64,000 nucleotides of DNA. Source: Haliotis cracherodii (Eukaryota). The translations under genes and the position numbers were made by a program. The notes beneath the pieces are model-generated. The model ran no database searches and was not told where the DNA came from. It saw only the letters and a list, made by a program, of their open reading frames with translations. Position 1 is the first letter of the stretch; each line of letters begins with the position of its first letter. Positions 8,366 through 61,740 of the stretch are shown here, piece by piece. The stretch spans positions 124,001-188,000 of the forward strand of contig NW_027266292.1 in assembly GCF_022045235.1 (NCBI RefSeq), read 5' to 3'.

Positions 8366-8690
8366 CAATACCCCGGCAAACATTCCTCCACTCTCACTGT
8401 CATCATCCCGCGATAAAACCCTGTTGATGATGTTGTGACACGCAGGAACAATGACAGTGACGGATGGCGCACGCGAAGTGTCAAAACGTCACGCGCCATT
8501 AATTCGCAACGTTATTGGATGCGAGGCTATGTACTGTTATCATCAACGCGGACGAAAGCCCCTTCTCAAGGAGATTCCTTCACAATACTCCACAATGGGG
8601 GCAAGTAATATTCGAATTCGCTTCAATTGAGTCACGTGGCATGCGGGCGGGCACCTGTTGTGGTGAAGGCAGTGATGAGTGTGGGAAAGT
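8366..8690. promoter_or_regulatory. Conserved non-coding element E+A, spacer 1-2
   Basis: Aligns with 61401-61705 and 49540-49844; contains TCACGTG, GGGCACCTG and a Su(H) site TGTGGGAA at 8680-8687. Confidence 0.55.
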
Positions 8691-9271
8691 TCAATGAAGA
8701 ATATGATAACGGGAGAAGGTAAACACGTTTGTTGTCTCACGTTGCCTGCCGGAAAAAGAAACAAAATTAATAAGTGTTACTTTGCACCTTGATACACGAT
8801 AAATCTCTTCTAACATCCGGCGTTTTATCTAAAACAAATTACGGAAAAGAGGAGAAATTGATAATTTTCTCGGAAATCCACATTTTTATTTGAAATAACG
8901 AATTGGAAAATAACGCAACGTTGGTAATGTGAGACCAATGTATGAAAATATAAAACATTCATGTTTATCAAGTCTTTGAAAGGCATTTAGAAGTGATACA
9001 CATAAGGAAGAGAATTTGCGGATGTCGACTTCTTTATTATGAGGAACACAACGTTTCATCTTAGAGTAAGTGTTCCTCATAATACAGAAGTTGACATCCC
9101 CAAATTCTCTTCCTTATTCATATTTCTGTTAGAGGCTTCTCTTTATGTTTTGGAAAACACGCATCTGATTTTCTTTGACAATGACTTCAAATCGTCGCTT
9201 TGACATCTTGAAGTTAAATTTAGAAAACAAACAAAGAGATAGCTTTGTTAGTTTGTTTCACTACAATCGAT

Positions 9272-9541
9272 CCATGACGATTCGGGGTAGAATAGATCTT
9301 CAGCAACCAATGCTTGCCTTACAATGCGACTATGCTTGTCGTAAGAGGCGACTAACGGGATCGGGTGGTCAGGCTCAATGACTTGGTTGATGCATGTCAT
9401 CGCATCCCAATTGCGTGGGCCGATGCTCATGTTGTCAATCACTGTTTTTTTATGGTACAGACTCGATTATTTACAGGCCACCGTCATATAGCTGGAAACT
9501 TGCTGAGTGAGGCGTTAATCAACAAACAAACAAACAACAAC
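9272..9541 (+). mobile_element. Family B short retroelement
   Basis: Homologous to 52419-52682. Confidence 0.8.
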
Positions 9542-10349
9542 AAAATCACTACAATCAGTGGCATGCACCATCAAAAGATAATAGAATGTATTAATAAATC
9601 GAAAATGAAGAATCAGTGATTTAGCATCGTACCTAACACCGTTTTATTGGCTATTTGGGGCTACAAAATAAGTTTCAAACAATCGAACCATTACAAATCC
9701 GATTCGACTTATCAGTGGTCAAATAATAGAATAATTAAAGGAATTCGCAAGGACCAGACAAGCAGTTCGGCACTGTCGAGAAATCGACATATCATATTTT
9801 GCAACAAACGGTTTTCAACTACATTAAACAAGTTTTGTTTGCTTCGTGTGTACCTTCGATTATGTTCGTGTATTATTCTTGCCAATTTATATAATGGATA
9901 ATTTAATGATTTTAAGTGCCTCATAGATCCTTCATGGGTCGGCTGATGCTTTTATATATCATACGTATGTATACTAGACTAACATTTAGTCTCTGAAATC
10001 TTATATTACACAAAATCCTTCTTGACTCTAAAAATAAAAAAATTCCCTATGCTGATTTCAGAATGTGTAATAGAGCTAGCTTGAGCTGGCTAGACTTGCT
10101 TTTGTATGCATTTCTAGATTATTATTTTTTCATAAAATAAATATATTCCACGGTCATGGTGCAGGACTAGTATGTATACGTGTAATGTTTTTTTATAGTC
10201 TTAACACCAGGTGGCACTATAATAAAATAATTTTCTTCTTCTTCTTCTTCTTCTCCAATGTGTACAATAGCGGTTTTTGCAGTGGGTTAAACTATAGTGA
10301 CAGAACGGGAAACTAAAGCGCTGGGCAAAAGAATGTATACACTGTGTAA

Positions 10350-10546
10350 TTGGATTTCACCAAAAGATTACAAACGTTATCAAAACGTTACTAAGCTGAA
10401 AACAGTTACAAACACTACAAACCTTATGTCCAAAACACAACGATGATACCCGTATCAAATACATCACCATGGAAAAAACATTTCTTGATTGTTTCATTTT
10501 TAGCCACCATCAAACATGGATGTGTACTTTCTTTTGCCCGACAGTT
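10350..10546. repeat. Dispersed repeat containing GATACCCGTATCAAATACATCA
   Basis: Copies at 15820-16005, 19610-19740 and 62045-62236. Confidence 0.6.
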
Positions 10547-10824
10547 GAGTTGATAATTCAATGGGACTGGGACGTATTTTTGTGTTTACTGATTTTTGAG
10601 ACTATGAGACTGTGTGACTGATGAGAGGTAATAATGGACTCACTGTAGAATGAGTTTACGTACGCTTCCATCAGTATTGCGGGAGATCACGGAGACTTTG
10701 TACTCGGATATCAGATATATGGAACCAATCCACTTGATGTCGGACTCTGACTGAGACCCTTTGTTTTCTTTTAAATGCGCCCGCTAGCGTGTGAGGTACA
10801 TTATTCCGGGACAAGCCGAATAGC

Positions 10825-59110: not shown

Positions 59111-59330
59111 GATTCCCCCGTCCGACAGAGCGGAGTAAGTCCATTAGTGTCAACACCCCACAACACTTAAAGTCATTATAACACCACAAGGATATATCAC
59201 ACACCACTATGACGTCACACTGAGAAAGTGATGTAATGCCATTGTTCACGACCACCCTTCCAGTGATGGAGATTGTCTGTAAATGTCCTCAACGGCGCAG
59301 AGCCCCACTAGGCTGGACAATGCAACTGAT
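59111..59330. promoter_or_regulatory. Conserved non-coding element B, spacer 7-8
   Basis: Diverged homologue retaining CCATTAGTGTCAAC, TGACGTCA, CATTGTTCACG and GGCTGGACAA. Confidence 0.5.
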
Positions 59331-61072
59331 AGTTAACAAATTTGGTTAAACGGAAGATAAGATCCCCTTATTTGATAAGGACATTAAAAGTAGATTAGGG
59401 CACGGGACGATCTAACTCGTTCAATCAGCTTACACTCGGGTTGTAGGTTTCCATCATGTTGGATTCAATAAAGACTGAATTACCGTTCGTTCGTTCGTCC
59501 GTTCGTTCGTTCGTTCGTTCGTTCGAGATCGATTAATGAAAAAAAGTTGTTGGTGAAATGTATAACAGTACATGTTTATACAAATCTTTTGCTTATGTGG
59601 ACGAAATGATGTACAGAATCAATAGTATTAAGAAGTATTAATTTATCTAAATTGACATATTTAAATTATTTATTATTACATTATTTTATATTTTTAAATA
59701 TTACAATATAATTAAATGCATGTAGGAGAAGGTCTCGTGAGTGACCACTTAATTCACTTGTGCCTAATCCATTTGATTTTCCGCAATAAAATATGTTTAA
59801 ATCAATTAAATAAAAAAAAACTAAATTGACGTTACCAGACAACACGGTTCGGAAGCCATATCCATCAACTTAATACTAACTTCTAGATCTGATCTCGGTA
59901 TAATTCGGACAAGTAAATAGGTAAAGTAAAGCATTTCAGTTCATATCTCACGAAATGTTTTGCACAGTGGCATCTCCTGAACTGAATCCCATGAGCTCCA
60001 AATCTGGTTCGAGACGATGTCATTTAGTGCTTCTGACTTAGTCCCCCTTCAGTATCTTCACTTGGCCCCCAGGTCGATCCGATAGTGTAGGGCACGAGGC
60101 CAGATAACACCATGCGCGTTATAGGTGCATCATATTTTGTATATACACAGTGCTTTCTTTGTTATCAACTTTCCGCGCTTGGTCGAAAGGAAGCGGTATC
60201 TACGAATGCCTATAACTATTGGATCTTGTATATCATTTAAAGGTCAAAGTTCACATAGATAACGCTTTATCGTGTCATTCCTTCGGACATAGAGTGAGAC
60301 GGAGTGTAACGCAGGCTTGGTTTCAACAGGATTTCAGTAAAAATCTTGTTTCTCGTGGATTGATAAGGGGTGCAAGGTTTTTATTTTCTATTTTGGTAGG
60401 TGAGAAGAAGAAGAAAAAATAGTGTCACGTGGTACATCCTTGGTCATTTACAAAAATATGAGGACCGAGTCAAGTTGGCTTTTGAGACACTTTTAAACAT
60501 GTACATCATAGTTAACAAACATTTGATTATGCTAACGATAACACATGCTAGAATTTATAATAACAAAGTACACCTGGATTTATACGACATGTCCACCCTA
60601 CGCCATATAAAAAAGTATGTTGATTCGTTTTGGTAACGACTCGAAGTTTGAAATGCTAGGTTATTCTGCGTATCCGACACATGCACTATCAATGGTACCG
60701 CGTGTGTAAAAATAAAATTCATGAAGAAAATTCAAATTCCAGAGTTGAAAAAAGTCGTTTCTTAACAATTCATAAAACATTTACAATTAAATATACAAGG
60801 GACGAGTGATTCATAACAAATCAAACAATAGCGTTAATTTACGAAGCTTTATATTGCATCAGATGGAAGTGTGACAATTCCTACCTTACACCAACATTAA
60901 GTCTCTCGTTTACAAATATATTTTAAAAAATAAAACCCAACTGGAGCCCTGGACAATGCTTAATTTCAAGAGATTGGGCAATCAAGACTTGCCAAATCAT
61001 TTCAGAATTTGTGTTGGATTCGTTTTTTAATATGTTCTTCTTTCTCTTTGATCTGGTAGACAGACTATCCTA

Positions 61073-61157
61073 CAGTAAACTACGCTTATAACGAACTACG
61101 GTTATAACGAACTAAAATTAGTTGTCCCTTTGAGTTCGTTATAACCGTAGTTTGCTG
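61073..61157. mobile_element. Very small Tigger-like MITE
   Basis: TIRs CAGTAAACTACGCTTATAACGAAC and GTTCGTTATAACCGTAGTTTGCTG, flanked by TA. Confidence 0.7.
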
Positions 61158-61400
61158 TACCTGTGTGTACCTCAAGTCTGATTAGTCTGTGAAAGCCCAC
61201 ATGGGTGTGGTTCTGACGAAACCCACAGAGTTGGTGGTAAAAAAATACTTCGAAAAGTTGTTTGTATCTCAGAAAAAGGTATCACCTAATCCAATATAGA
61301 CCGGCATCCATTACCGTCGGGTGACTGAGCCCAGTGCCTAAAGAATACATCAGTGTCACTATCAGATAGAAATTTATACCGATGTGTTGCATTCCAAAAC

Positions 61401-61740
61401 ACAATACCCCGGCAAACATTCCTCCACTCTCACTGTCATTAAACCCCGTCGATGATGTTGTGACACGCAGGAACAATGACAGTGACGGATGGCGGGCTCG
61501 AGGTGTCAAGTCGACATGCGCCATCGACGTCCACTGTTATTCGATATATCCACTCAGCCACGAACTTTAACAACCGCCATTAGCTCAGAGTCAGAGCGCC
61601 CCTGTCTATATCAAAATGTCTCCCGTTATCTCGCCCGTGTGCTATCGTCACGCGCTGCTGGTGTCACGTGATAACCGGGCACCTGCACTGATTTAGTGTC
61701 ACGTGAGCCCATTAGGGGAAGTCCCCCGGGGAATCCCCGA
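61401..61740. promoter_or_regulatory. Conserved non-coding element E+A, spacer 7-8
   Basis: E block nearly identical to 8366-8500; A block at 61647-61705; two kB-like sites at 61715-61738. Confidence 0.6.

What the first reader, a model, noticed from the sequence alone, without database searches (positions are those of the whole stretch)
8631..61705. One E-box-rich conserved element (A) in each of the seven spacers
Seen: a block with the core TCACGTG(A)..CGGGCACCTG, usually followed by GAT(T/C)AGTGTCA, occurs once per spacer in the same orientation (8631, 18146, 26793, 34182, 42306, 49775, 61647), even where surrounding DNA is unalignable. Su(H) sites lie nearby in three spacers (8680, 18104, 49736, also 50040). 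Known: CAGGTG/GCAGGTG is the proneural Achaete-Scute/E-protein box, CACGTG is a class-B box that HES proteins can bind, and Su(H) plus proneural sites is the code of E(spl) proneural-cluster enhancers. Inference: a dedicated enhancer was duplicated and kept with every gene.
Basis: partly seen in the sequence, partly recalled or inferred. Interest (0 to 1): 0.7.

Follow-up and report, generated by a model that had tools for sequence, protein, structure and literature searches.

The report
Repeated enhancer in abalone HES cluster
A short conserved DNA block with two E-box motifs lies upstream of each of eight side-by-side HES developmental genes in an abalone, plus one flipped extra copy, and was found nowhere else in the genome; it is likely an enhancer copied along with the genes, but it lacks the fly-type paired Notch sites.

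Summary
The element is real. All seven copies are where stated. Two more lie outside the window: one 8.6 kb upstream of gene 8, one inverted 2.1 kb downstream of gene 1, so nine copies serve eight intact tandem HES genes. Whole-genome searches find full copies only in this cluster, so it is not a transposon. Motif blocks are kept while linkers and flanks drift, a related organism shows fewer changes in the module than beside it (4/319 against 21/532, p=0.017), and RNA pairing shows no covariation. It is the distal member of an ordered upstream array (promoter, block C, block B, block A); B and C are lost from some genes, A is not. Enhancer activity and the binding factors are inferred. Verdict: new member of a known kind, moderate interest.

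The parts
8606..8675 (+). A1, reduced copy: GTCACGTG and CGGGCACCTG kept (13 nt between the E-boxes), flanking TGACAC/GTGTCA motifs lost; 7.4 kb upstream of g1
18146..18217 (+). A2, full copy (GTGACACTTCGCGT, GTCACG, TCACGTGA, GCACCTG, AGTGTCA); 4.3 kb upstream of g2
26793..26865 (+). A3, full copy; 5.3 kb upstream of g3, 1.0 kb past the stop of g4
34182..34253 (+). A4, full copy; 5.1 kb upstream of g4
42306..42377 (+). A5, full copy, 99% identical to A4; 5.6 kb upstream of g5
49775..49846 (+). A6, full copy; 4.9 kb upstream of g6; 0 of 72 positions differ in the orthologous contig of organism B
61643..61705 (+). A7, copy without the left GTGACAC motif; 7.1 kb upstream of g7
8363..8499 (+). 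Block B1, about 135 bp conserved block left of A (copies also at B6, B7 and outside the window beside A0 and A8)
49528..49663 (+). Block B6
61402..61524 (+). Block B7
5628..5902 (+). Block C1, 200-270 bp conserved block with TGACGTCA, between promoter and B/A
25202..25469 (+). Block C3
31377..31658 (+). Block C4
38614..38895 (+). Block C5
59098..59374 (+). Block C7
8680..8687 (+). Single Su(H) consensus site right of A1
18104..18111 (-). Single Su(H) consensus site left of A2
49736..49743 (+). Single Su(H) consensus site left of A6 (strand opposite to the A2 site)
50040..50047 (-). Single Su(H) consensus site about 200 bp right of A6
1..1221 (-). HES gene g1 (3 exons, 274 aa, ends WRPW; stop lies 145 bp left of the window)
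12483..13887 (-). HES gene g2 (263 aa)
20179..21550 (-). HES gene g3 (264 aa)
27852..29154 (-). HES gene g4 (260 aa)
35428..36738 (-). HES gene g5 (260 aa)
43683..44962 (-). HES gene g6 (260 aa)
53091..54581 (-). HES gene g7 (262 aa)
63539..64000 (-). HES gene g8, 3' part (257 aa; start at window position 64493; lacks intron 1)
13890..14230 (-). Conserved promoter (shown for g2; 79-96% identical among the eight): TATA, CCAAT, GGCACGCG site in 8 of 8, single Su(H) site in 5 of 8

Best explanation
Block A is a conserved, cluster-restricted non-coding element that likely works as a distal bHLH-input enhancer, inherited as the outermost module of each HES gene's upstream region. Shown: nine copies, fixed motif order, near-fixed spacing, retention while neighbouring DNA turns over. 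Inferred mechanism: a class-A bHLH dimer (Achaete-scute/E-protein is my first guess; MyoD-, Twist- or Snail-type factors read the same word, recalled) binds the invariant GCACCTG; a CAC-half-site factor (USF/SREBP/Cwo-like, or the cluster's own HES proteins) binds TCACGTGA 9 nt away and tunes or opposes it; a co-factor binds the inverted TGACAC...GTGTCA pair that brackets the block (Six4, TALE or T-box type, recalled). Notch input and HES self-repression would enter mainly at the promoter. Crossing-over inside the near-identical genes would copy whole spacers, giving one A per spacer; selection then kept A while B and C were lost gene by gene.
For: Only cluster hits: 5 of 5, 5 of 5, 7 of 7, 7 of 10 with the shortest pattern (the other 3 score 10-13 bits against 21-81 for cluster copies). 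No A, B or C hit below E=0.16 in 20 kb around 10 other Orange-domain genes. Seven distinct copies: 63% mean identity and 13 invariant columns, against 36-41% and 0-1 in five flank windows. GCACCTG 9 of 9, CACGTG 8 of 9, TGACAC/GTGTCA 8 of 9. Columns invariant in A2/3/4/6 are matched more often than variable ones by A0 (44/54 vs 8/18, p=0.004) and A1 (33/50 vs 6/19, p=0.011). Organism B orthologue: 4/319 substitutions in B6..A6 against 21/532 in flanks, p=0.017; with indels p=0.002. Upstream-only region of g8 has C-B-A in the same order and strand as the spacers. B1/B7/B8 (79-88%) group like exon 1 of g1/g7/g8 (81-86% against 65-73%).
Against: No activity, chromatin or binding data. A6 alone is not significant across species (0/72; p=0.055 against flank, 0.11 against the rest), one module was tested, and X7 and X8 are one organism. 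The held-out column test is not significant for A7 (p=0.10) or A8 (p=0.057), and the alignment included the tested rows. A8 has lost CACGTG, A1 has lost both bracket motifs, and a paralogous copy in organism B reads CACCTG in place of CACGTG, so the grammar is not rigid. A3-A5 lie closer to the 3' end of the next gene (1.0-1.3 kb) than to their own start (5.1-5.6 kb). Factor identities rest on short words shared by many proteins.
Confidence: 0.68

Rival explanations
1. One reading: A is an E(spl)-type proneural-cluster enhancer run by Su(H) plus proneural sites, with HES feedback at CACGTG.
For: RCAGGTG in 9 of 9 copies, GCAGGTG in 6 of 9; Su(H) within 100 bp in 3 of 9, shuffle p=0.0025; CACGCG-type words in 4 of 9; targets are HES genes.
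Against: No Su(H) site inside any copy, none within 300 bp for 6 of 9, sites not positionally homologous; no paired site, which defines SPS+A (PMC2686717, PMC3261227). Mollusc HES genes are expressed in ectoderm, mesoderm, trochoblasts and foregut as well as putative neural tissue (PMC8429573 abstract).
Confidence: 0.15
2. A is a silencer or tethering/boundary element: Snail/ZEB-type repressors (recalled to bind CAGGTG) or HES proteins bind it, and the nine copies bracket all eight genes.
For: Every gene has a copy on both sides, including the inverted A0 with no gene of its own; A0 keeps the motif columns; USF-type GTCACGTG in 6 of 8 copies with the box.
Against: Order promoter-C-B-A and co-grouping with exon 1 fit a gene-specific upstream module; A0 may be a remnant of a duplication that ended beyond the module (B0 is 95% identical to B6 over 38 bp).
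Confidence: 0.12
3. Neutral relic or gene-conversion patch: the copies look alike because of recent duplication or conversion, not selection.
For: Spacers 3-5 are recent duplicates; exon and promoter trees disagree and four-fold sites differ only 9-23% (7 of 8 genes) while most introns are unalignable, which suggests conversion in this cluster.
Against: Conservation is punctate, with variable linkers between motifs; one copy is inverted; the orthologue test does not depend on paralogue history.
Confidence: 0.04
4. A small structured RNA or a MITE, suggested by the TGTGACACT...AGTGTCACA inverted ends.
For: A 7-9 bp terminal stem can form in A2-A6; z down to -2.4.
Against: z ranges from -2.4 to +1.5 across 14 folds; covariation term +1.16, 1 of 19 pairs with a double change; no Rfam match at A; no copies outside the cluster; depth over A6 is about 4-5 single copies against thousands at true repeats.
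Confidence: 0.01

Closest known systems
SPS+A modules of the Drosophila E(spl) complex (PMC2686717, PMC3261227; passages read)
   Same: Short conserved module repeated beside several members of a tandem HES cluster, with a class-A E-box; one fly module also lies downstream of its genes.
   Different: No paired Su(H) sites; no Su(H) site in the block; 4.3-8.6 kb from the start; extra TCACGTGA and inverted TGACAC pair; the abalone cluster is a separate expansion whose proteins lack the basic-region proline.
Lophotrochozoan tandem Hes clusters (PMC5381572, PMC4172395, PMC8166818; passages read)
   Same: Lineage-level tandem duplication of HES genes, common in molluscs; sub-functionalisation proposed for annelid and amphioxus clusters.
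   Different: The passages seen describe genes and expression, not non-coding modules; eight genes exceeds the two to six clustered genes reported in PMC4172395.
Deeply conserved Hes upstream motif architectures (Rebeiz et al. 2012; not held, recalled; cited in PMC4887206)
   Same: Stable motif combination kept upstream of Hes genes while single sites turn over.
   Different: Those combinations are recalled to include a Su(H) paired site; this one has none and is so far traced only within abalones.
USF/SREBP-type GTCACGTG(A) elements (PMC8431614, passages and section 4 part 1)
   Same: GT or T flank on CACGTG.
   Different: Here a single site coupled at near-fixed spacing to a class-A E-box.

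Membership tests
SPS+A (E(spl) proneural-cluster module) | Inverted pair of Su(H) sites about 17 bp apart | tested here: not met
   15 of 15 strict sites in the cluster have no partner with fewer than 3 mismatches at 15-18 bp
SPS+A (E(spl) proneural-cluster module) | Proneural class-A site (RCAGSTG, recalled) in the module | tested here: met
   RCAGGTG in 9 of 9 copies
SPS+A (E(spl) proneural-cluster module) | Su(H) site conserved with the class-A site | tested here: not met
   0 of 9 inside, 3 of 9 within 100 bp at non-homologous places
SPS+A (E(spl) proneural-cluster module) | Notch- and proneural-dependent activity in proneural clusters | not testable with these tools
   needs reporter assays
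Conserved non-coding cis-regulatory module | Non-coding, low copy, tied to a developmental gene | tested here: met
Conserved non-coding cis-regulatory module | Constraint above flanks, concentrated on motif-sized blocks | tested here: met
   significant for B6..A6, borderline for A6 alone
Conserved non-coding cis-regulatory module | Open chromatin, factor binding, reporter activity | not testable with these tools
   no such data available
MITE or other transposon | Many dispersed copies | tested here: not met
   depth
Structured ncRNA or pre-miRNA | Stable shared fold with covariation | tested here: not met
HES autoregulatory site | GGCACGYG or N-box flanking context (recalled) | tested here: inconclusive
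   GGCACGYG 0 of 9 in A and 8 of 8 in promoters; CACGCG 4 of 9 in A; these proteins lack the proline, so their preference may differ

The most novel reading that the evidence does not exclude
The cluster encodes a proline-less HES subfamily that binds the symmetric TCACGTGA in block A, next to an activator E-box, so that nine copies bracketing all eight genes form a shared cross-feedback circuit acting from either side and in either orientation, with Notch input moved to the promoter; gene-by-gene loss of blocks B and C then gives each paralogue its own module set.
Probability: 0.15. Interest if true: 0.68.

Novelty: new member of a known kind. Interest (0 to 1): 0.4.

Why it matters
Mollusc enhancers are barely mapped. 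Here paralogue comparison marks one to the base pair, with natural variants (one copy without CACGTG, one without the bracket motifs, one inverted) and two neighbouring modules lost in different genes. That makes enhancer retention and sub-functionalisation after tandem duplication directly testable in a farmed species, and suggests a HES cluster wired differently from the fly SPS+A design.

Tried and rejected
Pattern with a 1-4 nt gap: 0 hits. Metagenome scan: 0 hits. Sequencing runs: no RNA holder listed. Runs guessed to be RNA gave no cover over the A3 bin and nothing over A6; this says nothing about expression. One search was swamped by repeats (1192 difference rows not shown), so it was used only for depth and contig spans. 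RNA hairpin and MITE readings rejected. B+A or C as a decayed promoter copy: p 0.05-0.62 in 12 comparisons, rejected. No TATA-like word placed as a promoter in the modules: only 3 marginal AT words in 7 regions. A 65% UTR likeness of g1 and g7 proved to be a shared repeat. No ninth HES gene or remnant in 264 kb by tblastn. Flank ORFs were listed but not scanned against families. One search missed g4 and shifted labels; redone, four-fold distances not redone. The Six4/TGACAC search gave one irrelevant paper, so that label is recalled. Rebeiz 2012 not held. Earlier-findings look-ups gave nothing relevant.
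Full report
Observation. The core TCACGTG-N(5-9)-CGGGCACCTG occurs seven times, all on the + strand, at 8632, 18179, 26827, 34215, 42339, 49807 and 61664; a 1-4 nt gap finds none. GAT(T/C)AGTGTCA follows exactly in 5 of 7, with one extra T in copy 7 and not at all in copy 1. The four Su(H) sites are present. An order-2 model expects 1.4e-5 matches in the window, which only shows homology, as the pattern came from the data.

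Context. The window holds eight minus-strand HES genes, 257-274 aa, each ending WRPW with an open frame; g1 and g8 run off the window ends. Named relatives are bHLH-Orange proteins of Haliotis species, then one of Gigantopelta (22 hits of 48 candidates). g1 groups with strong support with proteins of three labelled Haliotis species and g8 with one labelled H. asinina, so the paralogues are older than those species. No further HES gene or remnant lies in the 264 kb examined.

More copies. A profile of the seven copies run on 264 kb found two more: A0, inverted, at window -2266..-2194 (2.1 kb past the g1 stop; 39 bits) and A8 at about 73022-73079 (8.6 kb upstream of g8; 21.5 bits); the next hit scores 10.8 bits. 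Nine copies thus flank eight genes.

Not a repeat. Genome searches: shortest pattern 10 hits, 7 in the cluster, reversed control 0; DNA query 5 of 5 in the cluster; left-half pattern 5 of 5; right-half pattern 7 of 7. The three outside hits score 10-13 bits, little more than the pattern itself. DNA searches skip common words and give lower bounds; the pattern searches are exact. Contig depth over A6 is 71 against 15.5 single-copy in run X7 and 31 against 8.5 in X8; repeats nearby reach thousands to millions. Twenty kb around each of 10 other Orange-domain genes gave no A, B or C hit below E=0.16.

Anatomy. Full copies read GTGACAC(T/C)TCGCGT, (GT)CACG, a variable linker, TCACGTGA, CGGGCACCTG, then AGTGTCA. 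GCACCTG is in 9 of 9, CACGTG in 8 of 9, TGACAC or its complement in 8 of 9 (16 sites, 0.9 expected). The two E-boxes are 9 nt apart in 6 of 8 copies. Seven distinct copies (A4, A5 left out as recent duplicates of the A3 type) average 63% identity with 13 invariant columns; five equal-sized flank windows give 36-41% and 0-1. Columns invariant in A2, A3, A4, A6 are matched above variable columns by A0 (p=0.004) and A1 (p=0.011), not significantly by A7 (0.10) or A8 (0.057).

A larger array. Self-comparison shows two more cluster-restricted blocks. B (about 135 bp) lies just left of A at 5 of 9 places (A0, A1, A6, A7, A8); a B7+A7 query hits only the cluster, 3 of 3. C (200-270 bp, TGACGTCA in 5 of 6) lies upstream of g1, g3, g4, g5, g7, g8; 6 of 6 genome hits are in the cluster. 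The order promoter-C-B-A is constant and is complete in the upstream-only region of g8; the downstream-only region of g1 has only an inverted B+A. B1, B7, B8 group together like exon 1 of g1, g7, g8. I therefore assign each direct copy to the gene on its left, 4.3-8.6 kb from the start codon. Caveat: whole spacers duplicate together (S3-S5), so A3-A5 also track the 3' parts of g4-g6, 1.0-1.3 kb away.

Cross-species test. In organism B one contig spans 49400-50250. Of its 28 substitutions 25 are listed; the 3 unlisted most likely fall under a high-depth repeat in the right flank (inference). B6..A6, bounded beforehand from paralogues, has 4 in 319 bp against 21 in 532 bp (p=0.017; with indels 4 against 27, p=0.002). 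A6 alone has 0 in 72 (p=0.055 against flank). X8 gives 4/319 against 19/479 but is the same organism. Differences on short paralogous contigs were dropped from this count; one of them changes CACGTG to CACCTG.

Not RNA. Inverted ends allow a stem, but z runs from -2.4 to +1.5 over 14 folds, covariation is unfavourable with 1 of 19 pairs doubly changed, and Rfam finds only three tRNA-like matches elsewhere.

The code. Su(H): 0 of 9 inside A; 3 of 9 within 100 bp (shuffle p=0.0025, window chosen after the fact), right of A1 and left of A2 and A6 on opposite strands; no paired site at 15 strict sites. SPS+A is defined by such a pair (PMC2686717, PMC3261227; passages). Promoters carry one Su(H) site in 5 of 8 and GGCACGCG in 8 of 8. 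A review states that GT before CACGTG favours USF, that SREBP binds TCACGTGA, that ASCL prefers a 5' G, and that class-E factors carry a basic-region proline and bind CAC plus CTN or CGC half-sites (PMC8431614, passages and section 4 part 1 of 2). All 8 cluster proteins and the 20 relatives with a basic region lack that proline, while 7 of 9 other basic regions found in this genome have it, so their own binding to TCACGTGA stays open. A chiton's HES genes are expressed in several germ layers (PMC8429573, abstract), so a neural role is not forced.

Mechanism. Shown: copy number, position, motif-level constraint.

Comparison and novelty. Tandem Hes clusters are common in molluscs (PMC5381572, PMC4172395, PMC8166818; passages) and repeated modules are known from the fly complex. 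Eight literature searches (listings seen) showed no description of this element; subscription papers and supplements were not seen, and Rebeiz 2012 is recalled only (its citation seen in PMC4887206). It likely works as a duplicated developmental enhancer, and it is not an SPS+A member. New member of a known kind; interest 0.4.

Noticed in passing
basic regions of g1-g8, e.g. window 13520-13562 (-): All eight HES proteins and 20 of 20 relatives with a basic region read K-(L/I/M)-(M/L/I)-A-E-K, without the proline typical of HES; 7 of 9 other basic regions found in this genome keep K-P.
   Followed up: partly
L016:7734-8070 (window -2266..-1933): Inverted B+A module 2.1 kb downstream of g1, with no gene of its own; B0 also appears in runs X5 and X7.
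   Followed up: partly
window 5628-5902, 25202-25469, 31377-31658, 38614-38895, 59098-59374; L024:7163-7439: Block C is longer and better conserved than A (66-98% identity), holds TGACGTCA and shares ATTAGTGTCAAC with A6; absent upstream of g2 and g6.
   Followed up: partly
window 271, 20562, 35802, 44057, 63910: Exon 3 holds CGGGCACCTG on the same strand as A in 5 of 8 genes, next to TGACGTCA words; A2 against the g1 coding sequence beats 200 of 200 shuffles, most of the 12 comparisons are weak. Chance, an exonic enhancer or an exon-derived origin of A are all open.
   Followed up: partly
window 64442-64443 (L024): g8 lacks intron 1; exons 1 and 2 are fused in frame.
   Followed up: no
promoters of g4, g6, g7: The promoter Su(H) site is lost in these three; g6 has a deletion there and two sites near A6.
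   Followed up: no
exon 1, exon 2 and exon 3 of g1-g8: The three exons give different groupings (for example g7 with g1/g8 in exon 1, with g2 in exons 2-3), suggesting chimeric genes or conversion.
   Followed up: partly
window 4746-4817, 45836-45894, 51368-51439: Weak tRNA matches inside a dispersed repeat family, probably tRNA-derived SINEs.
   Followed up: no
window 16438-17383 and 40933-41876: About 950 bp inverted pair, 95% identical, between spacers 2 and 5.
   Followed up: no
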